Under the pieces are notes generated by a model. That model did no database searches. It was given only the letters and a program-made list of their open reading frames with translations, and was not told the origin of the DNA. From NCBI GenBank assembly GCA_964630975.1, contig CAZVVY010000002.1:44633-108632 (forward strand): a stretch of DNA of 64,000 bases, in the 5' to 3' direction. Positions 6,323-57,979 of this stretch are shown here, one piece after another (positions within the stretch are counted from its first letter, which is position 1; each line of letters begins with the position of its first letter). This DNA comes from Candidatus Micrarchaeota archaeon. GTDB taxonomy: Archaea; Micrarchaeota; Micrarchaeia; Norongarragalinales; Norongarragalinaceae. The position numbers were made by a program, and so were the translations under genes.

Positions 6323-7126
6323 GCTGATTACAGTAGAAATTTTGTCAAGGCCTTAAACCTCAAACCAGTACTAGCACTCAATACGACGATCTACTACAGT
6401 AGAAATTTTGTCAAGGCCTTAAACTTCCTTGCGTTGCCCACTCAAACCCCCATCTACTACAGTAGAAATTTTGTCAAGGCCTTAAACGCGACAACTTCAC
6501 GGTAGGATACTGGTTATCTACTACAGTAGAAATTTTATCAAGGCCTTAAACCGGGTTATACCGAATTCATTTCGGCTACCATCTACTACAGTAGAAATTT
6601 TATCAAGGCCTTAAACTGTATATTGAAGTAGTATCTCCCGCAACATCTACTACAGTAGAAATTTTGTCAAGGCCTTAAACTGGTCACGGGCGAACGAGAA
6701 GGAATCGGATCTACTACAGTAGAAATTTTGTCAAGGCCTTAAACACCAACAGTCAATGTTCGCCCACCACCGAATCTACTACAGTAGAAATTTTGTCAAG
6801 GCCTTAAACTGGTGGGCGCACGTGTTGGCACTACCAATCTACTACAGTAGAAATTTTGTCAAGGCCTTAAACAGTTCAACGATTAAGTTTTACGTGAACA
6901 TCTACTACAGTAGAAATTTTGTCAAGGCCTTAAACCTATTCGCGTATTCAATACTGCGTGCGTATCTACTACAGTAGAAATTTTGTCAAGGCCTTAAACA
7001 ATACAAGTCATACCTTTATGGGACGCATCTACTACAGTAGAAATTTTGTCAAGGCCTTAAACCTCGATGCTTACTATAGCGTCAATCGGGATCTACTACA
7101 GTAGAAATTTTGTCAAGGCCTTAAAC
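6323..7126 (-). CRISPR. CRISPR array of Cas12a type: 13 repeats of 36 nt and 12 spacers of 27-30 nt
   Basis: Plus-strand repeat is atctactacagtagaaattttgtcaaggccttaaac. Its reverse complement, GTTTAAGGCCTTGACAAAATTTCTACTGTAGTAGAT, ends in the Cas12a 5'-handle stem-loop (UCUAC-UGUA-GUAGA), so the array is transcribed on the minus strand like the cas genes. Repeat starts: 6323 (degenerate), 6389, 6452, 6516, 6581, 6645, 6709, 6774, 6837, 6900, 6964, 7027, 7091. The repeats at 6516 and 6581 carry one substitution (ttttatcaagg). Confidence 0.97.
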
Positions 7127-9149: not shown

Positions 9150-12100
9150 TTACTTGCTCCGTTCAACTGCGAAGTTGATGAAGTCGTTCCTGCTGATTAG
9201 TAAATCGAGTTTTTTCTTTCCTTTGTTGGCCTTTATTCTTTCCAAGAGCATTAATCCTTTCAACCCTATGTGGTAAGCGCCGTTCGCGTCGGCGTCCTTG
9301 GGCTCGTTGTCTTTAGCTTTTCTTGAGTCGAAGAATTCGCCGTTTTCGTCTTTTACGCAGGAAAGTACGTAATCTTCTTCGGGGTCTTTTCTTGAGTTGC
9401 GTAACATTAAAATCGTTTTAAAGATTTTAATGAGGTTTTCAAAGAAAGCTTTTTTGTTTTGGCTGGCTATTTGGCTTATAATATTTTCGTCTTTTTGGAA
9501 GGAAACCCCGTATTCTTTGAACAATATTTTTAGTTTTTCGTTCGGTTTGACTTCCTTTGTATCCCATGAATTGTTTTTATTCTTGTTTCTGAAGCCGACT
9601 AGTTTCGTTCCGTTCGAGTAAACCGACCAATTGTCTTGAATTATTTTTGTTTCTTTTTTTCCGTTTTTAATGAATTTGGAGTAGTCGAAGTTGAATTCGA
9701 ATAAGCCTTCGCTCGAATCGTATTTGATGTAGTTGAATTTTTTGAAGAATTCCTTAGCTTTTTCTATGTTCTTGAATTTAGGTCTTAACAGATTTACGAA
9801 GCCTGTTTTCGGGCAAATCTTCGAGGTGTACGCCGCGGGAACGTAGTATATTATACCTGTTTCTTTTCCGAGTTTCTTAAATCCTTCAAATTTTCCGGTT
9901 AGTTGGTATGCGTTTAGGGATCCGCCGGCTTCTTTTTCGGTTCTTTCCTTGAAAACCAAGTAATTGAGTTTGTCTATTAGTTTTTTCTCGAACTTTTGGT
10001 ATACTTGCTTCTCGATTTTTAATCTCCCGCGCTTGAAGTCTAAGTTCAGGTCTTCCAAGACGATTATCGCGTTTTTTTCTATTGCGAGTTTAGCGATTTT
10101 GTGTACGATTTGGGATAGGTAGCCATCCTTCAATTTCTTTATGGTCTCGATTTTCTGCCAGCTTTTCCTTGCTTTGTCGCGTTCTTTTTCGCGTTCATCC
10201 AGTTTTTCGTGGTAATCACGTTTTCTTTCTTTGTCGTCCGAGATTACGTTGAAAGAGCCTTGTTCTTGGATTTCTCCTTTTGAATTCAATAGCGTGTAGT
10301 ACGCCAAGTGCCTTTCCCCGCGGTCAATGCTTAACACGAAAATGTCATCTTTTGTTTCGCGTATGTGGTCGTTGACCCGCTTGTTAATCGTTTTGCTGCC
10401 ATCGCGCGCCTGGAAGTTCAAGGTTATCGGGCAGTGGAAGAAGAAACGGTCTTCGGTGTACCTTTTGTTTTTTATAAAGTCGTATTTGAATTTACTGAAT
10501 TTTTTCCCTTTAATCGGGTCTTTGTTTTCTATTTTTTGGTTTTTTGGGTGAGTTACTTTCCTTTCCATTGACTTTGGGCGGTAGAATATTTCGGCTTCGC
10601 CGTTTAATTTGTAAGTTATGTCTGAAAGGTTTTCTTTGGAGAATAGTTCTTTCCAGTAAATTGTGTGCAGGTTTTTACGGCCTTCCGAATACTTCGAAAA
10701 GTCCTTGTTCCAAATTTGGAATAAGTAAAGTTTTCCTTCTTCGACCAAGTCAAGCAAATATTTTTCGCTTATTTTTTTGAATTCTATTTTATAGCCTTGG
10801 TCGGATACTTCTTTATAAAATTCTGATATGTCGACGTAATCTTCCGTTTTTTTGAATTGGAAATCGTATTCTTTCCATTCGGGGTGTTTTTGAATGCTCT
10901 TTTTGTAAAAGTCAATCATTTTATGGCAATCGCTTAATCGGAAATCCCTTTTTTTGAACCCGTTTTGTGGGTTTCCATGCTTGGTGTGGGCAGAGTGATT
11001 ACGAATCGCTTCGATTTCTTTTGATGGCTTGTAAAATGAAATGTTTTTTTTTGCAAATAATATTCTAGGTAGATTTTTTTCTGGGGTAGGCAATAATTTG
11101 TAGTCTATTTTTTCAAAATAATTTTTTCCAGCCGGAAGCCGTTCCAGTTCGTCAAAAACGTTTTTTTGTTTTGGGGTCATAATGGCTAAGTAGTATGACT
11201 CCTCTTTTCTCAATATAACAGAATAATAGTCTTTTTCCTTGTTTTTGTCCCAGCCGCTTAGGAGTTTGGGATTTTCAAAGTTTAACTTGAATTTTTCGGT
11301 GCTGAACGGTTTTTGCGTAACATAGTTTCTGACTTGATTGTATAGTGGGATTATATTCCCTAGTTCCGCAAACGATTCGTCGAAATCGTTATAGAAATCG
11401 TTATCGGTTTCAAGTGCCTCTGAATCCTTTTCTTTCTTGTTTTTGAAGTTGATGTTGAGGGGTTTTATGAAGTGGTATAGCCGCATTATTGAGTCCAGTA
11501 ACGCCTTTATTCTTGCGACGTTGGGCTCTTGGCTTTCAGCAGTTAATTTCTTTTTTTTGTCACTTATTTTTTCATATTCAGTGCGCGCTTTTTTTATTTC
11601 TTGAATCAAGTTTGTCTTTTTTTCTTCTAGTTTTGAGAAATAATTACATATCGGGTGTCCGGTTGAACCGATTTTTTTGAGGCCGCTCTCTATTTCGTGG
11701 ATTGAATACCTGCCTTTTTTCATCCATTTTTCTATTTTTTTGTCGGTTTTGAGGCCGAGTTCGGTTTTCGCGTATTCCCTTAGGGCTTGAAGTACTCTTT
11801 CCCGATCCCCGAATACTTCTTGTGAAATTCCTGTTAGGCATCTATCGTTTTTCAAGTAAACTAATTCCAAATCTTTTTCTTCTAGCTTTTCGAGGGTCGC
11901 TTCTATTTTTTTGAGTGTTTCCAAGCTTATTTTATCGTAAAATTCGTCTATTGCATCGAATACCTCCGTATTTTCCTCGAATTTTTCGAATGCGAACGAG
12001 GAGGATTTGCGGTCACTTAAGATTTGCTTGAATAACGGCGCGAGTTTTAATTTTCTAACCTTTTTTTGCTCGTTTTTGTCCGCTTGTTTTTGGGCGAGTT

Positions 12101-12914
12101 CGTTGACTAATTCGTTTAAGCCCTTTATTTTATTGTTGCCTTCTTCGCTTTTGCCTCCTATGATTAAGTTGAATTTTTCTATTCCTTCTTGGTTAAGGCA
12201 GTTGTTGAAGTTTTTCAAGTTGAAAAAATCTTTTAATTTCTCTCCGTTCAACTCGCTTTCAAAGTTTTCTTCTATTTGGTTGGCGTCAAATTCCTTGTAT
12301 CTGGTTATTTCTCCGAAGCGTGAAACGTCATCTAGGAATTTCGGTAGGTTGTCGTTGACTATCCTGTAAATCATTGACGTCGAAATTTCATCGCTTGAAA
12401 AAACGTTTTTGCGGTTGTTAAAAAAACCGCTAAAGTAGGTAACCCATTTATCGAATTTTTCGATTTCTTTGAGTTCCTCTTTTTTCCCTTTTTTTTCGAG
12501 CCATTCCGGCAATATTTTTTTGATGAATTCTTTCTTGAACAAGTATTTGAATTCTTCTTTTTTATTTATTTCGTCGTGAATTAGTTTCCTTAATTGTTTT
12601 TGGAGTTTTGCGTATTCTTCCCTTAATTTTTTGTTGTAAGGGTCTTTTTTCAGTTTCGTGTAAGCGTTGTTGTTTTCTTCCAATTTTTTTAACGGTATCT
12701 TGGCACCTTCCAAGCATTCTTCTATGAATTGCTTGTAGTATCCGTCCATTATTTTTTTGACTTTGTTGAAATCTTTTTGGCGTTGTTCGTCTTCTGTAAT
12801 CAGGTTGCGATCTTGAATTTTCTGCAGTGTTTTGCCGACTGGCTTTAATTCGAAGCGTAGAGTTTTCGTTAGGGGGTATTGGTTTGTAAACGAATCCCAA
12901 GTCGAGACCTTCAT
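9150..12914 (-). CDS. cas12a: Cas12a (Cpf1), type V-A effector, 1254 aa
   Basis: N-terminus FTNQYPLTKTLRFELKPVGKTL. Pre-crRNA RNase region KVTHPKNQKIENKDP...FIKNKRYTEDRFFFHCPITLNF. RuvC-I LSIDRGERHLAYY, RuvC-II AIIVLEDLN, RuvC-III DADANGAYHIGLKG. Nuc region LRNSRKD...FFDSRK. The operon order cas12a-cas4-cas1-cas2-array is canonical for type V-A. Confidence 0.97.
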   Translation of the reverse strand: MKVSTWDSFTNQYPLTKTLRFELKPVGKTLQKIQDRNLITEDEQRQKDFNKVKKIMDGYYKQFIEECLEGAKIPLKKLEENNNAYTKLKKDPYNKKLREEYAKLQKQLRKLIHDEINKKEEFKYLFKKEFIKKILPEWLEKKGKKEELKEIEKFDKWVTYFSGFFNNRKNVFSSDEISTSMIYRIVNDNLPKFLDDVSRFGEITRYKEFDANQIEENFESELNGEKLKDFFNLKNFNNCLNQEGIEKFNLIIGGKSEEGNNKIKGLNELVNELAQKQADKNEQKKVRKLKLAPLFKQILSDRKSSSFAFEKFEENTEVFDAIDEFYDKISLETLKKIEATLEKLEEKDLELVYLKNDRCLTGISQEVFGDRERVLQALREYAKTELGLKTDKKIEKWMKKGRYSIHEIESGLKKIGSTGHPICNYFSKLEEKKTNLIQEIKKARTEYEKISDKKKKLTAESQEPNVARIKALLDSIMRLYHFIKPLNINFKNKKEKDSEALETDNDFYNDFDESFAELGNIIPLYNQVRNYVTQKPFSTEKFKLNFENPKLLSGWDKNKEKDYYSVILRKEESYYLAIMTPKQKNVFDELERLPAGKNYFEKIDYKLLPTPEKNLPRILFAKKNISFYKPSKEIEAIRNHSAHTKHGNPQNGFKKRDFRLSDCHKMIDFYKKSIQKHPEWKEYDFQFKKTEDYVDISEFYKEVSDQGYKIEFKKISEKYLLDLVEEGKLYLFQIWNKDFSKYSEGRKNLHTIYWKELFSKENLSDITYKLNGEAEIFYRPKSMERKVTHPKNQKIENKDPIKGKKFSKFKYDFIKNKRYTEDRFFFHCPITLNFQARDGSKTINKRVNDHIRETKDDIFVLSIDRGERHLAYYTLLNSKGEIQEQGSFNVISDDKERKRDYHEKLDEREKERDKARKSWQKIETIKKLKDGYLSQIVHKIAKLAIEKNAIIVLEDLNLDFKRGRLKIEKQVYQKFEKKLIDKLNYLVFKERTEKEAGGSLNAYQLTGKFEGFKKLGKETGIIYYVPAAYTSKICPKTGFVNLLRPKFKNIEKAKEFFKKFNYIKYDSSEGLFEFNFDYSKFIKNGKKETKIIQDNWSVYSNGTKLVGFRNKNKNNSWDTKEVKPNEKLKILFKEYGVSFQKDENIISQIASQNKKAFFENLIKIFKTILMLRNSRKDPEEDYVLSCVKDENGEFFDSRKAKDNEPKDADANGAYHIGLKGLMLLERIKANKGKKKLDLLISRNDFINFAVERSK

Positions 12915-32393: not shown

Positions 32394-32575
32394 CGCCGGG
32401 ACTGAGATTCGAACTCAGGCGGCCTTTCGACCACTGGTTTTCCAAAAACCCGCTTGCCCGCTTTGACTCCGCTTGATGCTTCGTCTTCAGCGGCCAACCC
32501 CGTTTACGGAACGAACGGTTCGCTTCGTTCGCGGGTTGTTCAAGACCAGCGCAATAACCACTCTGCCATCCCGGC
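32394..32575 (-). tRNA. tRNA-Ser(UGA) with a 99-nt intron at the canonical 37/38 position
   Basis: Hand fold. 5' exon: GCCGGGA-UG-GCA-GAGUGGUUAU-UGC-G-CUGGU-CU-UGA-A. The 3' exon AACCAG closes the anticodon stem, followed by the long variable arm UGGUCGAAAGGCCGC, T arm CUGAG-UUCGAAU-CUCAG, acceptor UCCCGGC and discriminator G. Intron is 32440-32538. No encoded CCA. Confidence 0.85.
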
Positions 32576-32757
32576 TTCCAATTATCTTTTTGACCTTTCT
32601 TTTTAATGAACGTTTTTCTTCGGGGAAGAAAAAAGTTCGCGCCAATAACCACTCTGCCATCCCGGCTTCCAATTATCTTTTTGACCTTTCTTTTTAATGA
32701 ACGTTTTTCTTCGGGGAAGAAAAAAGTTCGCGCCAATAACCACTCTGCCATCCCGGC
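32576..32757 (-). repeat. Two perfect 91-nt tandem units upstream of tRNA-Ser, each a 63-nt spacer plus a 28-nt copy of the tRNA 5' end
   Basis: The spacers at 32576-32638 and 32667-32729 are identical. The fragments at 32639-32666 and 32730-32757 (GCCGGGATGGCAGAGTGGTTATTGGCGC in RNA sense) match tRNA positions 1 to ~27 with one extra G. Confidence 0.95.
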
Positions 32758-32796
32758 AACAACGAATTAATATGTTCCCCGCGTCGTTTAATTGTT

Positions 32797-32886
32797 ATGC
32801 CTAAGAAGACGAAGTATGACGGCCTCGTTTACAACGTTACCACGGAGTCCGGTAATTTGTTTGCCAACGGCGTGCTCGTCCACAAC
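32797..32886 (+). other. Split-intein C-fragment (IntC, 30 aa)
   Basis: Hint blocks F/G: LVYNVTTE...[10 protein letters not shown], followed by the +1 Ser of the extein. Confidence 0.8.
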
Positions 32887-34143
32887 TCGGGCGGCCTCGG
32901 CACTCCGCCGCACTTGCGCGTTGAGCCGGGCGCGATTCACCGCGCACACAAAGGAGTACTGTTCATCGACGAAATCGCTTCGCTGTCGCCCAAATCACAG
33001 CAGGAATTGTTGACTGCAATGCAGGAAAAAAAGTATTCGATTACCGGGCAAAGCGAGATGAGTTCGGGCGCGCTAGTGCACACCGCGCCCGCGCCCTGCG
33101 ACTTCGTTCTCGTGGCTGCGGGAAACTACAAGGAGTTGCGCAGAATGCATCCGGCCCTGCGCAGCCGAATCCGCGGCTACGGCTACGAAGTGTACATGGA
33201 GGACTCGATGCCGGACACCGCCGAGAACAGGTGGCGTATAGTCGAATTCATCGCCCAGGAAGTGGAAAAGGATGGTAAAATACCGCACTTCAACCGCGCC
33301 GCAGTCGAATTAATCGTTAACGAGGCGCGCAAGCGCGCGGGCCGAAGAAACAAGTTGACCCTCAAATTGCGTGAGTTGGGAGGCCTCGTGCGCGCCGCGG
33401 GAGACGTTGCGCGCACACGCAAGCACAAGCTCGTCACCGAAAAAGACGTGAAGGAAGCGTTGAGTATCGCGACCACTCTCGAACAACAAATTTCGCGGCA
33501 AGTCGTTGACGCGCGCAAGGACTACCACGTGTTCCTGACCGAAGGCGCGCAAGTGGGCAAAGTCAACGGTCTCGCCGTAATGGGTGATTCCGGAATAATA
33601 ATGCCCATAGTGGCAGAGGCGGCGCCGTCCGCGTCCCGCGAGGAAGGCCGCGTAATCGCGACCGGTAAGCTCGGCGAAATCGCGCGCGAAGCCGTTGAAA
33701 ACGTGAGCGCGGTGTTGAAGAAATACCTCGGCGAAAACGTGCGCGCTTACGACTTGCACATTCAATTCCTGCAGACCTATGAAGGGGTGGAAGGGGATAG
33801 TGCCAGCATCTCGATTGCAGCCGCCGTGATTTCAGCGTTGCATGAGGTGGCAATCCGCCAGGACGTTGCAATGACGGGGTCGTTGAGCGTTCGCGGCGAA
33901 GTCCTGCCCGTTGGCGGGGTTACCGCGAAAATTGAAAGCGCTTTGGACGCGGGTTTGAAGACCGTTTTGATTCCGAAAGCGAATTACGAGGACTTGGGAA
34001 CGCTCGACAAAAAAGCGAAAAAACGCGTAATACCCGTTTCCAACATAATAGAGGTTTTAGAGGAGTCTTTGAAGCCCGGAAAAAAGAAGTCGGCGCTCAT
34101 CCGCAAAATGAAGAAGTCCTTCAAGGAAAACGGCTGGAAGTGA
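32797..34143 (+). CDS. lonB: LonB protease C-terminal half preceded by a 30-aa C-intein (split gene)
   Basis: [30 protein letters not shown] | [30 protein letters not shown] (Walker B)...[11 protein letters not shown]...[16 protein letters not shown] (catalytic Ser)...[10 protein letters not shown] (catalytic Lys). The Walker A and TM regions are missing here and are found at 55779-56780. Confidence 0.9.
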
Positions 34144-54345: not shown

Positions 54346-54858
54346 TTAACTACTCATTGCGAAGCCGAGCACTTGCGCCGCCTTAACGGTCCACTGGCCC
54401 TTGACGGTTTCCGAGTCGGCTTCCACGAACACTTTTCCTCCGTCAACGTAAATGCAGTTGCATTCGCCTATCAACAACACGATGTTCGGGTTCGAACAGT
54501 TATTGGTTTCGTCGGTGCACCCGATGTTTTCTTCTCCGGGCACCGTGCCGTACGTCCACAATTCCTTGCCCGCCTTGCGGGCTTCGTCGGCGACTTGAAC
54601 CATTAACACGCTTAACGCGGAGTTCAACTCGCTTTGGCCCGAGTACATCCTGGCCTCGCTCACCAGGCGGTCCGACGACAACGCGTCCTTGACTTCCTGC
54701 CACCCGCTTTTAACGATTACGCCGTTAACCTTTTTTTCACTGGGTTGGTTTGACAACGCGAACAACACGATTGCCGAGAAAACGCCGATGCCCACTATTG
54801 CGAGCACGAGTGCCTCGAACTTGTTGCCCTTCTTTTTTTCTTTTTTCTTCTTCGTCAT
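54346..54858 (-). CDS. Hypothetical membrane-anchored protein
   Basis: Lys-rich start followed by one TM (ALVLAIVGIGVFSAIVLFAL) and an extracytoplasmic domain with several Cys. Confidence 0.4.
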   Translation of the reverse strand: MTKKKKEKKKGNKFEALVLAIVGIGVFSAIVLFALSNQPSEKKVNGVIVKSGWQEVKDALSSDRLVSEARMYSGQSELNSALSVLMVQVADEARKAGKELWTYGTVPGEENIGCTDETNNCSNPNIVLLIGECNCIYVDGGKVFVEADSETVKGQWTVKAAQVLGFAMSS

Positions 54859-55742
54859 ATCGTCAACTCCAATCCTTCTCTTGCAAGACTGCTTTCTTCG
54901 AAAACCGTTTTCGCTTCTTCAAGCAACGGCTCGCGGTCTTCATAGCGGTTGCTGAAATGCGTTAACAACAATTTTTGTGCTCCCGCCTTTTTAGCGGTTT
55001 TGGCGGCTTGCAGGGCCGTGGAATGCTTTTTTTCCTTTGCCATTCCCGCCTCTTTTTCCGAGAAGCACGAATCCATTACCAGCAAGTCCGCTTTTTTCGC
55101 TGCACCCGTCAATTCCTTGCAGGGCGCGGTGTCGCCGCTGAAAACTATTTTTCTGCCGGGCTGCCTGTAAGTAACGTCTTTAAGCCGCACTTTTTTCCCG
55201 TTGATTTTCAACTCTTTTTTCTCGGATAACTCGGAGAACAAGCGCCCCTTCACGCCCAGCGACTTCGCTTTTTCCTCGTGAAAACGCGTTTTTTCGGGTT
55301 CCTGTAATGTGTAGCCCACGGCCGGGCACCCGTGTTCGACCGGGAAGGCCTCGACCGAAAACAACTCGCATTCGAATACGCGGCTTTTTCTCACGTCTTT
55401 AACGGTTACGGGGAAAGAAGTGCGCAGTTCGCGGGTCGCAAACAAGGTTTCAAAAAAGTTTTTTGTGCCGCGCGGGCCGAAAACTTTCAGTTCGCGTTGA
55501 CGGCCCGACATGTTCATGGTCTGCGTCAAGCCGAGCAAGCCCAGCCAGTGGTCTGCGTGCAAGTGCGTCAAGAACACGGCGTCCGTTTTGGCGTAGCTCA
55601 CGCCGTACTTCATCATTTGGCGTTGCACGCCTTCACAGGCGTCGAACAAGTAGACTCCTCCATAGCGCACCGCGTAGCACGCGGGCACGCGCCGCTTCGT
55701 GGGCAGGGACGCCGCGCTTCCAAGAACCGTCAAACCAATCAT
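54855..55742 (-). CDS. rnz: Ribonuclease Z (tRNA 3' endonuclease)
   Basis: LTVLGSAASLPT, the FLTHLHADHWLGL metallo-beta-lactamase motif, and LTHFSNRY at the C-terminus. Confidence 0.82.
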   Translation of the reverse strand: MIGLTVLGSAASLPTKRRVPACYAVRYGGVYLFDACEGVQRQMMKYGVSYAKTDAVFLTHLHADHWLGLLGLTQTMNMSGRQRELKVFGPRGTKNFFETLFATRELRTSFPVTVKDVRKSRVFECELFSVEAFPVEHGCPAVGYTLQEPEKTRFHEEKAKSLGVKGRLFSELSEKKELKINGKKVRLKDVTYRQPGRKIVFSGDTAPCKELTGAAKKADLLVMDSCFSEKEAGMAKEKKHSTALQAAKTAKKAGAQKLLLTHFSNRYEDREPLLEEAKTVFEESSLAREGLELTI

Positions 55743-55778
55743 ACAATATAGATATATTTCGCAAACCGTTTTATTACG

Positions 55779-56780
55779 TTGCGTGGAAGTGTTTTAGTGG
55801 CCGAAAAAAAGTCGAAGAAGAATTATTTGCCGAAGGGATTCAAGAGCACGGCTTCCCTCAAAGTGAAGAAGCGCTTGGTGGACCAAGTCGTAGGGCAAGA
55901 GCGCAGCGTGGAAATAATTCGCAAGGCCGCCTCGCAAAAACGGAACGTGTTGTTGATTGGAACCCCGGGAACCGGGAAAAGCATGCTTGCCCAGGCGATG
56001 AGCGAGTTGTTGCCCGTGCAAAAACTGTTCGACGTACTCGTAAAGAAAAACCCTGAAAACGAGAACGCGCCCTTGATTGAATCCGTTCCCGCGGGCCAAG
56101 CAAAAAAAATCCTCGAAAAAGAACGAAGCAAGGCGCGCGTGCCCGCCAACAACACGAGTTTGGCGATAACCGTTGCCTTGTTCGTTTTCTCGTTTTTGCT
56201 TCTCACTTTTTGGAGGGAGTCCCTCGGCGACATCATTACCGCCGCCCTACTGATTTGCCTCTTCGTGATGGGGGGCATAATGGCGGTCGGCTCGCAGTTA
56301 GGCCGCGGAATGAAGGTATTCGATTACGCGGACGCCGTAAAAATCCTGGTGGATAACGCCAAGCAAAAGCGCGCGCCGTTCGTGGACGCCACGGGCGCGC
56401 GTTCGGGCGCTTTGCTCGGCGACTGCCGCCACGACCCGTTCCAATCGTTTTCGCCCGATACGACGGTTGCCTGCAAAGGGGTTGAGACGACGATGGGCGA
56501 GTTGTGGCAAAAGTATTCCGCGAAGTACCCGGAACTAATTGAAACGAATGAAGACGGTTACCAAGCAATTGTTTTGCCGGAAAACGAAGAAGTTTTCGTG
56601 GACGGGTTCGTTGACGGCGCTGAAAGCAAAGTGCGCGTTCGCATAATCAATCGTCGGCCTTACAGCGGCGAACTCGTGGAAGTCGGCGGGTTGAAGACGA
56701 CTCCCGAACACGTTTTCATCACGAAGAACGGCGAGAAAAAGGCGTTGGACGTAACGGAAAGCGAGTTAATCACGCAATGA
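55779..56780 (+). CDS. lonB: LonB protease N-terminal half (Walker A plus two TM helices) fused to a 111-aa N-intein (split gene)
   Basis: VVGQERSVEIIRKAASQKRNVLLIGTPGTGKS (Walker A), TMs LAITVALFVFSFLLLTF and ITAALLICLFVMGGIMAVG, and GALLGDCRHDPFQ | SFSPDTTV...GGLKTTPEHVF...ELITQ-stop. The start is TTG at 55779 or GTG at 55797. Confidence 0.88.
   Translation: MRGSVLVAEKKSKKNYLPKGFKSTASLKVKKRLVDQVVGQERSVEIIRKAASQKRNVLLIGTPGTGKSMLAQAMSELLPVQKLFDVLVKKNPENENAPLIESVPAGQAKKILEKERSKARVPANNTSLAITVALFVFSFLLLTFWRESLGDIITAALLICLFVMGGIMAVGSQLGRGMKVFDYADAVKILVDNAKQKRAPFVDATGARSGALLGDCRHDPFQSFSPDTTVACKGVETTMGELWQKYSAKYPELIETNEDGYQAIVLPENEEVFVDGFVDGAESKVRVRIINRRPYSGELVEVGGLKTTPEHVFITKNGEKKALDVTESELITQ
56445..56777 (+). 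other. Split-intein N-fragment (IntN, 111 aa)
   Basis: Begins with Ser1 in block A (SFSPDTTV) immediately after the conserved LonB DPFQ. Block B T-x-x-H is present (LKTTPEHVF). Ends at a stop codon where a homing endonuclease or linker would sit. Confidence 0.8.
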
Positions 56781-57838: not shown

Positions 57839-57979
57839 TGCAGGGGGAGGGATTTCCTAAACCTTTCTTTTTGGGTGAAACACTTTTCTTTCCCAAAGAA
57901 AAGGGTTCTTCGAACCCTCGAACCCCTGAGGGACTAGGCCCTGAACCTAGCACGGTTGACCAGGCTTCGCTACCCCTGC
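57839..57979 (-). tRNA. tRNA-Leu(CAG) with a 56-nt insert in the T-loop
   Basis: Hand fold: GCAGGGG-UA-GCG-AAGCCUGGUCAAC-CGU-G-CUAGG-UUCAGGG-CCUAG-(variable arm UCCCUCAGGGGUUC)-GAGGG-UUCGAA[56-nt insert 57853-57908]U-CCCUC-CCCCUGC-A. The mature length would be 85 nt. The exact insert boundaries are ambiguous because GAA repeats at both ends. Confidence 0.8.

What the first reader, a model, noticed from the sequence alone, without database searches (positions are those of the whole stretch)
55779..56780. LonB protease is split into two genes carrying complementary intein halves, a candidate naturally split trans-splicing intein
Seen in sequence:
- This ORF encodes the LonB N-terminus: Walker A GTPGTGKS and the two TM helices typical of membrane LonB.
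- It follows the conserved LonB sequence up to GALLGDCRHDPFQ, then switches to SFSPDTTVACKG...GGLKTTPEHVFITKNG...ELITQ and stops.
- The switch point falls inside the invariant LonB block that normally reads DPFQSGGLGTP.
- The appended 111 aa carry Hint block A (Ser1, SFSPDTTV) and block B (T-x-x-H, TTPEH).
- The missing continuation, SGGLGTPPH...VLFIDEI...GDSAS...TAK, is at 32797-34143. It is preceded by a 30-aa peptide ending in [10 protein letters not shown] (Hint blocks F/G, terminal HN, +1 Ser).

IntN (111 aa) plus IntC (30 aa) gives a ~141-aa mini-intein, split where a homing endonuclease is normally inserted. All splicing residues (Ser1, TxxH, HN, Ser+1) and all Lon catalytic residues are intact, and both halves have their own start, stop and AT-rich upstream region.

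Established knowledge: natural split inteins are known for cyanobacterial DnaE and Nanoarchaeum PolB, and contiguous inteins are catalogued in some archaeal Lon genes.

Inference: I am not aware of a split-intein Lon. The spliced product would be about 640 aa, the normal LonB size.
Basis: partly seen in the sequence, partly recalled or inferred. Interest (0 to 1): 0.85.

Follow-up and report, generated by a model that had tools for sequence, protein, structure and literature searches.

The report
Naturally split intein in archaeal LonB
In this small DPANN archaeon the membrane protease LonB is encoded as two genes 23 kb apart, each ending or starting with half of a self-splicing intein; hundreds of related archaea carry the same arrangement, so the protease is almost certainly stitched together after translation, and I found no published description of this.

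Summary

**The two genes.** ORF 55779-56780 (+) carries LonB residues 1-222 (Walker A, two TM helices) plus a 111-aa tail. ORF 32797-34143 (+) carries a 30-aa head plus the remaining 418 aa of LonB. Unsplit relatives read HDP[FL]Q-SGGLGTP without a break, so the two exteins abut exactly (640 aa).

**Intein identity.** A profile of 12 fused tail+head pairs matches solved inteins: KlbA 7.6e-12, NrdJ-1 1.7e-9, and Pho RadA 2.3e-7 over its full length. An AlphaFold model of the tail hits only inteins in Foldseek.

**Conservation.**
- 119 of the 120 best N-half homologues stop after a 92-185-aa tail. Residue 1 is S, C or T, and TxxH is present in 116/119.
- 73 C-halves carry 30-68-aa heads. The terminal Asn and +1 Ser are invariant.

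**Other states at the same site in relatives** (Micrarchaeota, Diapherotrites/Iainarchaeota, some Woesearchaeota):
- empty;
- cis intein with an endonuclease-like insert;
- cis mini-intein;
- 'fractured' gene with a free-standing endonuclease-like ORF;
- adjacent halves;
- dispersed halves, as here.

The site lies in AAA+ pore loop-1.

Splicing itself is untested. This is a new member of a known kind (natural split inteins). No report turned up in the searchable literature.

The parts
55779..56780 (+). lonB N-half gene: N-extein plus IntN plus stop. TTG start at 55779; alternative GTG at 55797 used by public gene calls.
   Evidence: (P0001 100% identical, 327 aa)
55779..56444 (+). N-extein, LonB aa 1-222. 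Walker A at 55959-55982, TM helices at 56160-56213 and 56232-56291. Ends ...CRHDPFQ inside pore loop-1.
   Evidence: (aligned to TonLonB up to Q217); pore loop-1 range from PMC9569914
56445..56777 (+). IntN, 111 aa. Ser1 (SFSPDTTV, 56445-56468), block B TTPEH (56697-56711), ends ...ELITQ before TGA.
   Evidence: (profile E=1.8e-39)
32797..34143 (+). lonB C-half gene: IntC plus C-extein plus stop.
   Evidence: (TIGR00764 638.6 bits)
32797..32886 (+). IntC, 30 aa: [30 protein letters not shown] (blocks F/G, penultimate His, terminal Asn).
   Evidence: TIGR01443 24.1 bits > 15.6; best PDB hit is the Neq PolB IntC
32887..34140 (+). C-extein, 418 aa, starting with the +1 Ser of SGGLGTPPH. Walker B at 32956-32973, LonB AAA-lid, protease domain with Ser (33793-33807) and Lys (33916-33930) motifs.
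55743..55778 (+). Short divergent intergenic region between the RNase Z-like gene (54855-55742, -) and the N-half, with the AT-rich run ATATAGATATATTT at 55747-55760. Promoter-like by eye only.
   Evidence: inference
32758..32796 (+). Immediate upstream region of the C-half with AT-rich AATTAATAT / TTTAATTGTT. Promoter-like by eye only.
   Evidence: inference

Best explanation
The window encodes a functional, naturally split class-1-type intein (Ser1 ... TxxH ... His-Asn / Ser+1). The intein is inserted in pore loop-1 of the AAA+ module of the membrane protease LonB.

Proposed mechanism, step by step (shown = read from sequence or tool results; inferred = not tested):
1. Two unlinked genes are expressed separately. 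Shown: separate starts and stops, 23 kb apart. Inferred: separate promoters.
2. The N-half inserts into the membrane through its two TM helices and presents IntN on the cytoplasmic side. The soluble C-half carries IntC at its N-terminus. Inferred from LonB topology.
3. IntN (111 aa) and IntC (30 aa) associate into one Hint fold. Shown: homology and a structural model. Inferred: the association itself.
4. The standard four-step splicing reaction follows. First an N-O acyl shift at Ser1. Then transesterification to the Ser+1 side chain. Then cyclisation of the terminal Asn. Finally an O-N shift.
5. The product joins ...HDPFQ to SGGLGTPPH... and gives a 640-aa LonB with Walker A, Walker B, pore loop and protease domain in one chain. 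Inferred; not demonstrated.

Evolutionary origin: the split form derives from a cis intein at the same site whose endonuclease-like insert was first separated into its own ORF ('fractured gene') and then lost. Genome rearrangement afterwards moved the C-half away.
For: **Exact complementarity of the exteins.** Unsplit relatives read HDP[FLY]Q|[ST]GGLGTP at this point (40 full-length LonBs; loci L006-L063).

**Hint homology.**
- TIGR01443 scores above its cutoff on IntC.
- The A1 profile hits the KlbA intein at 7.6e-12, the NrdJ-1 split intein at 1.7e-9 and the Pho RadA mini-intein at 2.3e-7 (profile positions 7-167 against chain 6-166). CDC21, VMA, PolII, DnaX and RecA inteins follow.
- The top 14 Foldseek matches of the IntN model are all inteins, including the NeqN chain of the Nanoarchaeum split intein.

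**Selection on catalytic residues**.
- Residue 1 is S in 91, C in 25 and T in 3 of 119 N-halves.
- TxxH is present in 116/119.
- The terminal Asn is present in 73/73 and the +1 Ser in 73/73.
- The penultimate residue is His in 56/73.

**The split arrangement is old and stable.** The same dispersed layout recurs in a relative with only 59% (N-half) and 74% (C-half) identity: the C-half lies downstream of a DHH-family gene, about 21-23 kb upstream of the N-half, which sits beside an RNase Z-like gene. A second relative (73% identity) shows the same C-half neighbourhood.

**The split point equals the insert position of cis inteins.** IntN aligns to residues 9-115 of the 173-aa cis mini-intein P0296 and to residues 31-117 of the 496-aa cis intein P0306. 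IntC aligns to the last 22-24 residues of each.

**Intermediates exist at the same site.**
- cis intein with insert: L010, L005, P0306.
- IntN-insert fusion ORF overlapping the IntC ORF by ATGA: L074.
- Free-standing ORF between the halves: L068, L069, L070, L073.
- Adjacent halves with no ORF between them: L071.
- The free-standing ORF is homologous to the internal domain of the cis intein (BLASTP 4e-42). It is also homologous to the internal regions of intein-containing RtcB and RFC models.

**Neither half can work alone.** Walker A is on one half; Walker B, the lid and the protease domain are on the other. The break lies in pore loop-1 (TonLonB Q217|S218; loop residues 209-232 per PMC9569914).
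Against: - No experimental or expression evidence of splicing was accessible.
- The residue aligned to the block-F Asp of KlbA and Neq inteins (YDL) is Asn in 71 of 73 family members (YN). The effect on catalysis is unknown.
- The penultimate His is replaced by K, S, A, C or Y in 17/73 relatives, though not in the window.
- Pfam Intein_splicing stays below its gathering score (23.5 against 35.8 bits for the fused sequence).
- No Foldseek match reaches E <= 0.001 (best 0.015).
- The single-sequence model of the fused intein was unusable (pLDDT 40).
- An intact lonB elsewhere in this genome cannot be excluded from a 64-kb window.
- There is no family-wide charge complementarity between IntN and IntC: mean net charge is +5.6 and +2.7.
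Confidence: 0.85

Rival explanations
1. The intein halves act only as a non-covalent dimerisation module. IntN and IntC bring the two LonB fragments together, but the peptide bond is never formed, so LonB works as a two-chain enzyme.
For: The block-F Asp is replaced by Asn family-wide. The penultimate His is lost in about 23% of relatives. No splicing data exist.
Against: All four nucleophile or leaving-group positions are conserved or substituted only by other nucleophiles (S/C/T at position 1; Asn 73/73; Ser+1 73/73; TxxH 116/119). That pattern is not needed for mere binding. A 141-aa Hint domain left in the middle of pore loop-1 would sit in the substrate channel of the hexamer. Inteins lacking the penultimate His are known to splice (general knowledge).
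Confidence: 0.08
2. These are decaying pseudogene fragments. A cis-intein lonB was broken by a rearrangement, and the pieces are non-functional remnants, with another protease or an intact lonB doing the job.
For: Whole-genome content could not be inspected. DPANN genomes are reduced and lose genes readily.
Against: Both ORFs are intact, with all Lon and intein catalytic motifs. The same dispersed arrangement is kept in lineages only 59-74% identical. Hundreds of intact N- and C-halves exist in many lineages. In the GTDB scan each genome gave a single LonB locus, and the closest representative (UBA95, 86% identical) gave only the split C-half. That scan was pattern-based and not exhaustive.
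Confidence: 0.04
3. This is an assembly or annotation artefact: a contiguous intein-containing lonB mis-assembled or frameshifted into two pieces.
For: One relative (L003) shows a cis intein apparently broken by a frameshift with overlapping frames.
Against: In the window the halves are 23 kb apart, with the C-half upstream of the N-half. Each has its own stop or start and unrelated neighbours. The same proteins recur in independent assemblies from several sources.
Confidence: 0.02

Closest known systems
Nanoarchaeum equitans PolB split intein (Neq Pol; NEQ068/NEQ528; PDB 5OXX/5OXZ)
   Same: A DPANN archaeon with a cellular housekeeping gene split into two distant genes. Ser1 ('oxyester') nucleophile, a 30-aa IntC, and a split at the canonical endonuclease-insertion point. 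NEQ528 is the best single-sequence PDB match of the window's IntC, and the NeqN chain is among the Foldseek hits.
   Different: The host protein is PolB, not LonB. The +1 residue there is Thr (NEQ528 alignment) against Ser here. It comes from a hyperthermophile and is essentially a single-species case (general knowledge). The LonB family spans many lineages and keeps its evolutionary intermediates. Block F reads YD in Neq and YN here.
Cyanobacterial DnaE split inteins (Ssp/Npu DnaE)
   Same: A lineage-wide, vertically kept split intein with dispersed halves, needed to assemble an essential enzyme. [quoted passage not shown]
   Different: Bacterial, with Cys1/Cys+1 (general knowledge), and hosted in DNA polymerase III alpha. 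No family-wide electrostatic complementarity is seen in the LonB family.
'Fractured genes' of Dassa et al. [quoted passage not shown]
   Same: Relatives L068, L069, L070 and L073 have exactly this layout: N-half, free-standing ORF, C-half on one strand. The NrdJ-1 intein is the second-best PDB profile hit.
   Different: [quoted passage not shown] Here the host is a protease on archaeal chromosomes. The intervening ORF descends from the intein's own internal domain. The window itself has lost the ORF and the linkage.
Contiguous LonB inteins of Euryarchaeota (10 listed by Novikova et al. 2016, PMC4760082)
   Same: Same host protein, with an intein in the P-loop ATPase module.
   Different: They are contiguous. 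Cis inteins at this site were found in Micrarchaeota instead (L005, L010, P0296, P0306).

Membership tests
Intein (Hint-fold protein-splicing domain) | Sequence or structure homology of the inserted sequence to Hint splicing domains | tested here: met
   The A1 profile hits solved inteins down to 7.6e-12, with a full-length match to the Pho RadA mini-intein. TIGR01443 scores above cutoff on IntC. The top 14 Foldseek hits of the IntN model are inteins. Pfam PF14890 stays below its gathering score.
Intein (Hint-fold protein-splicing domain) | Nucleophile (Cys/Ser/Thr) at intein position 1 | tested here: met
   Ser1 in the window. S 91, C 25, T 3 in 119 homologues.
Intein (Hint-fold protein-splicing domain) | Block B Thr-x-x-His | tested here: met
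   TPEH in the window. TxxH in 116/119, and Thr and His invariant in alignments A1 and A5.
Intein (Hint-fold protein-splicing domain) | C-terminal His-Asn followed by a +1 Ser/Thr/Cys | tested here: met
   ...LVHN|S in the window. Asn 73/73, Ser+1 73/73, His 56/73.
Intein (Hint-fold protein-splicing domain) | Block F Asp (F:4) that coordinates the splicing steps in many class 1 inteins | tested here: not met
   The aligned residue is Asn (VYNV) in the window and in 71/73 relatives. KlbA and NeqC have YD at this position. This is not a universal requirement of inteins.
Intein (Hint-fold protein-splicing domain) | Insertion in a conserved host site, with exteins that reconstitute an uninterrupted homologue | tested here: met
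   40 unsplit LonBs read HDP[FLY]Q|[ST]GGLGTP. The site is TonLonB Q217|S218, within pore loop-1.
Naturally split intein | IntN and IntC on two separate genes, each fused to one extein, each with its own start and stop | tested here: met
   The halves are 23 kb apart on the same strand.
Naturally split intein | Protein trans-splicing activity (a ligated product) | not testable with these tools
   Needs co-expression or proteomics.
Naturally split intein | No intact copy of the host gene in the same genome | tested here: inconclusive
   There is no other LonB or intein match in the 64-kb window. The closest GTDB genome (UBA95) gave one locus only, but that scan was pattern-based. The whole genome was not available.
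'Fractured gene' arrangement (Dassa et al. 2009) | A free-standing endonuclease gene lying between the two split-intein halves | tested here: not met
   Not met in the window: no related ORF anywhere in it (tblastn), and the halves are unlinked. Met in relatives L068, L069, L070 and L073.

The most novel reading that the evidence does not exclude
This is a previously undescribed, lineage-wide family of natural Ser1/Ser+1 split inteins, possibly the largest cellular one after cyanobacterial DnaE. Trans-splicing within pore loop-1 has become an obligatory, and perhaps regulatory, step in assembling the membrane AAA+ protease LonB in many Micrarchaeota, Iainarchaeota/Diapherotrites and some Woesearchaeota. 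The same clade preserves every stage of gene breaking: cis intein with endonuclease-like insert, fused or free-standing ORF, adjacent halves, dispersed halves.
Probability: 0.45. Interest if true: 0.75.

Novelty: new member of a known kind. Interest (0 to 1): 0.66.

Why it matters
- **Few cellular cases.** The textbook natural split inteins in cellular genomes are cyanobacterial DnaE and Nanoarchaeum PolB; most others come from phage or metagenome fragments and sit in DNA-metabolism enzymes. Here a split intein interrupts a protease and is conserved across a broad set of DPANN archaea.
- **A natural series for gene breaking.** The same locus in related genomes shows cis, fractured, adjacent and dispersed states. 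The gene-breaking model of split-intein origin can therefore be tested by phylogeny rather than inferred from scattered cases.
- **Protein engineering.** Hundreds of orthologous IntN/IntC pairs from environmental (probably mesophilic) organisms use Ser (or Cys/Thr) at position 1 and Ser at +1. Split inteins whose catalytic nucleophiles are not Cys are sought for ligation under oxidising conditions.
- **Annotation.** Public records call the N-half 'ATP-binding protein' or 'hypothetical'. LonB may therefore be scored as truncated or missing in these genomes.

Tried and rejected
- **AlphaFold2 on the fused IntN+IntC as a single sequence.** pLDDT was 40, so the model was unusable.
- **Mixed alignments of whole N-halves and C-halves against a fused first row** (A2, A3, A4). 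MAFFT misaligned them. It placed IntC (..PYNGYLYNLTT..) onto the IntN segment RRPYSGELVEV. I therefore modelled IntN alone (A5).
- **An 85-aa query (IntC plus the start of the C-extein) in the big protein search.** It returned only short fragments, and the whole C-half had to be used.
- **Electrostatic 'zipper' between IntN and IntC, as in DnaE.** Not supported. Family means are +5.6 and +2.7, and only the window's IntN is acidic at -8.
- **My recollection that TonLonB Phe216 is the pore residue.** I could not verify it. I rely instead on the published pore loop-1 range of 209-232.
- **Typing the intervening ORF as a LAGLIDADG endonuclease.**
  - No Pfam hit and no solved-structure hit.
  - It carries LGTLFGDGG / FLDGLLSSE-like motifs and matches the internal regions of intein-containing RtcB and RFC NCBIfam models plus a PHROG of unknown function.
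  - I therefore call it endonuclease-like, not proven.
- **Same insertion site in Thermococcales LonB inteins.** Not tested; no sequence was accessible.
- **Literature.** Ten full-text searches found no description of a split LonB intein. The library lacks most subscription journals.
Full report
**1. The observation**

The N-half (55779-56780) has 333 aa from a TTG start. Public gene calls begin at GTG 55797 and give 327 aa (P0001, 100% identical). Its features are:
- Walker A GTPGTGKS at aa 61-68;
- two strongly hydrophobic segments at aa 128-145 and 152-171;
- LonB sequence up to ...GALLGDCRHDPFQ at aa 222;
- 111 further residues, SFSPDTTV...TTPEH...ELITQ, then TGA.

The next gene (adenosine deaminase) starts 30 nt later.

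The C-half (32797-34143, 448 aa) opens with [30 protein letters not shown]. It continues SGGLGTPPH...VLFIDE...GDSAS...GVTAK.

The NCBIfam LonB equivalog TIGR00764 matches model positions 4-212 on the N-half. It matches positions 195-608 on the C-half at 638.6 bits. Pfam finds Lon_C and the LonB AAA-lid only on the C-half.

In-frame stops lie 9 codons upstream of the N-half TTG and 19 codons upstream of the C-half ATG. Each piece is therefore a self-contained gene.

The same proteins, at 99-100% identity, appear in assemblies held by NCBI, ENA, JGI and Logan. This excludes a one-off assembly error.

**2. Are the appended pieces intein halves?**

Single-sequence profile evidence is mixed.
- IntC passes NCBIfam intein_Cterm (24.1 bits, cutoff 15.6).
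- Its best solved-structure match is NEQ528, the C-half of the Nanoarchaeum PolB split intein.
- IntN alone is only marginal against Pfam Intein_splicing (E=0.17). The fused sequence reaches E=5e-5, below the gathering score.

Family-level evidence is decisive.

| Solved intein | E-value | Note |
|---|---|---|
| Mja KlbA | 7.6e-12 | |
| NrdJ-1 (naturally split) | 1.7e-9 | |
| Pho RadA mini-intein | 2.3e-7 | profile 7-167 against chain 6-166, essentially end to end |

Pho CDC21, VMA, PolII, DnaX and RecA inteins follow.

An AlphaFold2 model of IntN with a 112-sequence alignment has pLDDT 70-94 over the intein part. Its top 14 Foldseek/PDB matches are all inteins: TliVMA, KlbA, PhoCDC21-1, NeqN, Ssp DnaB and Mtu RecA. 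The top four have TM 0.59-0.63 and probability 1.00, although E-values are only 0.015-0.1.

**3. A large conserved family**

Of the 120 best homologues of the N-half (554 with E<=1e-3), 119 are 317-428-aa proteins. They follow LonB to HDP[FLY]Q and then carry a 92-185-aa tail. Source names given are Micrarchaeota, Diapherotrites and Norongarragalinales.

Of the 120 best homologues of the C-half, 78 lack the N-terminal part of LonB. Among these, 73 carry a 30-68-aa head of the form ..VYNVTTETGNLF..LVHN before SGGLGTP. Another 40 are ordinary uninterrupted LonBs of 613-677 aa, also from Micrarchaeota, reading HDPFQ|SGGLGTP.

Conservation follows the catalytic logic of splicing:

| Position | Count |
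|---|---|
| Residue 1 | S 91, C 25, T 3 of 119 |
| TxxH | 116/119 |
| Terminal Asn | 73/73 |
| +1 Ser | 73/73 |
| Penultimate His | 56/73 (otherwise K, S, A, C or Y) |

There is one deviation. The residue aligned to the block-F Asp of KlbA and NeqC (YD) is Asn in 71/73 members.

**4. What relatives show at the same site**

| State | Loci | Detail |
|---|---|---|
| Empty | most LonBs | uninterrupted |
| Cis intein with large internal domain, one ORF | L010 (1164 aa), P0306 (1159 aa, Thr1), L005 (1073 aa) | L005 belongs to a second intein lineage with PF14890 at 2e-12 and LAGLIDADG_3; L003 is the same type, apparently frameshifted |
| Cis mini-intein | P0296 (837 aa, 173-aa intein) | no insert |
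| IntN fused to the internal domain | L074 (703-aa ORF) | its stop overlaps the ATG of the IntC-bearing ORF (ATGA) |
| 'Fractured' | L068, L069, L070, L073 | N-half, free-standing 334-388-aa ORF, C-half on one strand |
| Adjacent halves, nothing between | L071 | 134-bp gap |
| Dispersed | window; contig NODE_1_527582; L072; UBA95 | see below |

On NODE_1_527582 the C-half lies about 21 kb upstream of the N-half, as in the window. In L072 there is no N-half within 10 kb. In UBA95 there is none within 3 kb.

The free-standing ORFs are 39-69% identical to one another. They are homologous to the internal domain of the L010 cis intein (BLASTP 4e-42). They are also homologous to the internal parts of NCBIfam's intein-containing RtcB and RFC models (E down to 6e-22).

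These ORFs have no Pfam or PDB match. I therefore describe them as endonuclease-like rather than as proven homing endonucleases.

The window's IntN aligns to residues 9-115 of the 173-aa cis mini-intein and to residues 31-117 of the 496-aa cis intein. IntC aligns to the last 22-24 residues of each. The break therefore sits exactly where the insert sits.

Gene neighbourhoods point the same way.
- An RNase Z-like metallo-beta-lactamase gene lies upstream of the N-half. It is immediately divergent in the window (54855-55742), L065 and L071, and within one to three genes in L067, L069, L070, L073 and L074.
- A DUF373 gene follows the C-half in the cis, fractured and adjacent loci. It does not follow it in the window.
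- In the window the C-half instead lies downstream of a DHH-family gene. The same holds in L066 and L072.

The C-half was therefore moved once. The dispersed state has since been inherited by lineages now only 59% (N-half) and 73-74% (C-half) identical. That is hard to reconcile with decay.

**5. Where in LonB**

Aligned to Thermococcus onnurineus LonB (4zpx), the junction falls between Q217 and S218. A published structural comparison places pore loop-1 of TonLonB at residues 209-232 (PMC9569914).

The intein therefore interrupts the substrate-translocating loop between Walker A and Walker B. Each half lacks motifs essential for ATPase activity. An unexcised Hint domain would sit at the axial channel.

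**6. Mechanism and rivals**

The best-supported reading has confidence 0.85.
- The two genes are expressed separately.
- IntN and IntC associate at the cytoplasmic face of the membrane.
- Standard class-1-type splicing through Ser1, Ser+1 and the terminal Asn yields a 640-aa LonB.

The sequence and homology steps are shown. Association and ligation are inferred.

Rivals:

| Rival | Confidence | Main argument against |
|---|---|---|
| Non-covalent two-chain LonB | 0.08 | selective conservation of nucleophiles |
| Pseudogene fragments | 0.04 | breadth and age of the arrangement |
| Artefact | 0.02 | independent assemblies |

Caveats: there are no expression or splicing data, the block-F residue is Asn, and the rest of the genome could not be inspected for an intact lonB.

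**7. Comparison with known systems, and novelty**

The closest analogue is the Nanoarchaeum PolB split intein. It shares the DPANN host, Ser1, a 30-aa IntC and dispersed genes.

In spread across a lineage, the closest parallel is cyanobacterial DnaE. [quoted passage not shown]

The arrangement in relatives matches the 'fractured genes' of Dassa et al. 2009. That paper reports them for DNA synthesis and repair enzymes, mainly in phage.

Ten full-text searches used combinations of split intein, intein, Lon, LonB, DPANN, Micrarchaeota and split gene. None returned a description of a split LonB intein. The library omits most subscription journals, so absence is not proof.

I classify this as a new member of a known kind. 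The mechanism is classical. The host protein, the taxonomic breadth and the preserved evolutionary series are new as far as I can tell.

**8. Scores**

| Item | Score |
|---|---|
| Interest | 0.66 |
| Most novel reading (undescribed, lineage-wide split-intein family with obligatory or regulatory trans-splicing of LonB and a complete gene-breaking series): probability | 0.45 |
| Interest if that reading is true | 0.75 |

Noticed in passing
window 6323-7126 and 9150-12914 (-): A complete-looking type V-A CRISPR locus. It comprises a 1254-aa Cas12a/Cpf1 (Pfam RuvC_1 2.8e-91, REC1, REC2, NUC, PI) and an array of 13 repeats with period 63-66. Read on the minus strand the 36-nt repeat is GTTTAAGGCCTTGACAAAATTTCTACTGTAGTAGAT. 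Notable in a small Micrarchaeota-type genome.
   Followed up: partly
window 32552-32757: A perfect 91-bp tandem repeat, 2.3 copies at 100% identity, ending 40 bp before the ATG of the lonB C-half. Its function is unknown; it could be regulatory, a recent duplication or an assembly artefact.
   Followed up: no
P0290, P0292, P0282 (relatives): LonB of these archaea is an intein hotspot. P0290 is a split N-half that also carries a cis intein with an endonuclease domain inside Walker A (GTGK|C...HN|S). P0292 carries one at FVDA|C...HN|TGSRAG. P0282 shows an intein ending ...THN|CGAIHRA, a site downstream of the pore-loop site.
   Followed up: partly
L074 2626-6164: An intermediate in which IntN stays fused to the endonuclease-like domain (703-aa ORF, Thr1). 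The IntC-bearing C-half starts at an ATG overlapping the stop (GCATGATGG), which suggests translational coupling.
   Followed up: partly
L068 1231-2364; L069 8875-10041; L070 8973-9977; L073 7411-8526: Free-standing ORFs between split halves. They have no Pfam or PDB match, but they match the internal region of NCBIfam's intein-containing RtcB and RFC models and phrog_14115 of unknown function. This is an uncharacterised, probably endonuclease, domain family with LGTLFGDGG / FLDGLLSSE-like motifs.
   Followed up: partly
window 56445-56777 versus 32797-32886 (alignment A3): MAFFT repeatedly aligned IntC (..KVPYNGYLYNLTT..) onto the IntN segment ..NRRPYSGELVEV... This internal similarity is consistent with the pseudo-two-fold symmetry of Hint domains.
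   Followed up: no
window 32797-32886 and 73 homologues: The block-F position that is Asp in KlbA and Neq inteins (YD) is Asn (YN) in 71/73 members of this family. The consequence for catalysis is unknown.
   Followed up: partly
L071 4727-6727; L072 773-1732: In L071 a TPP-dependent enzyme gene carries its own intein with a LAGLIDADG domain, 2 kb from the adjacent split lonB. L072 has a free-standing LAGLIDADG_3 ORF next to HMG-CoA reductase.
   Followed up: no
window 57893-57978 (-): ARAGORN calls an 86-nt tRNA-Leu(CAG) that the Rfam tRNA model did not report at its gathering score.
   Followed up: no
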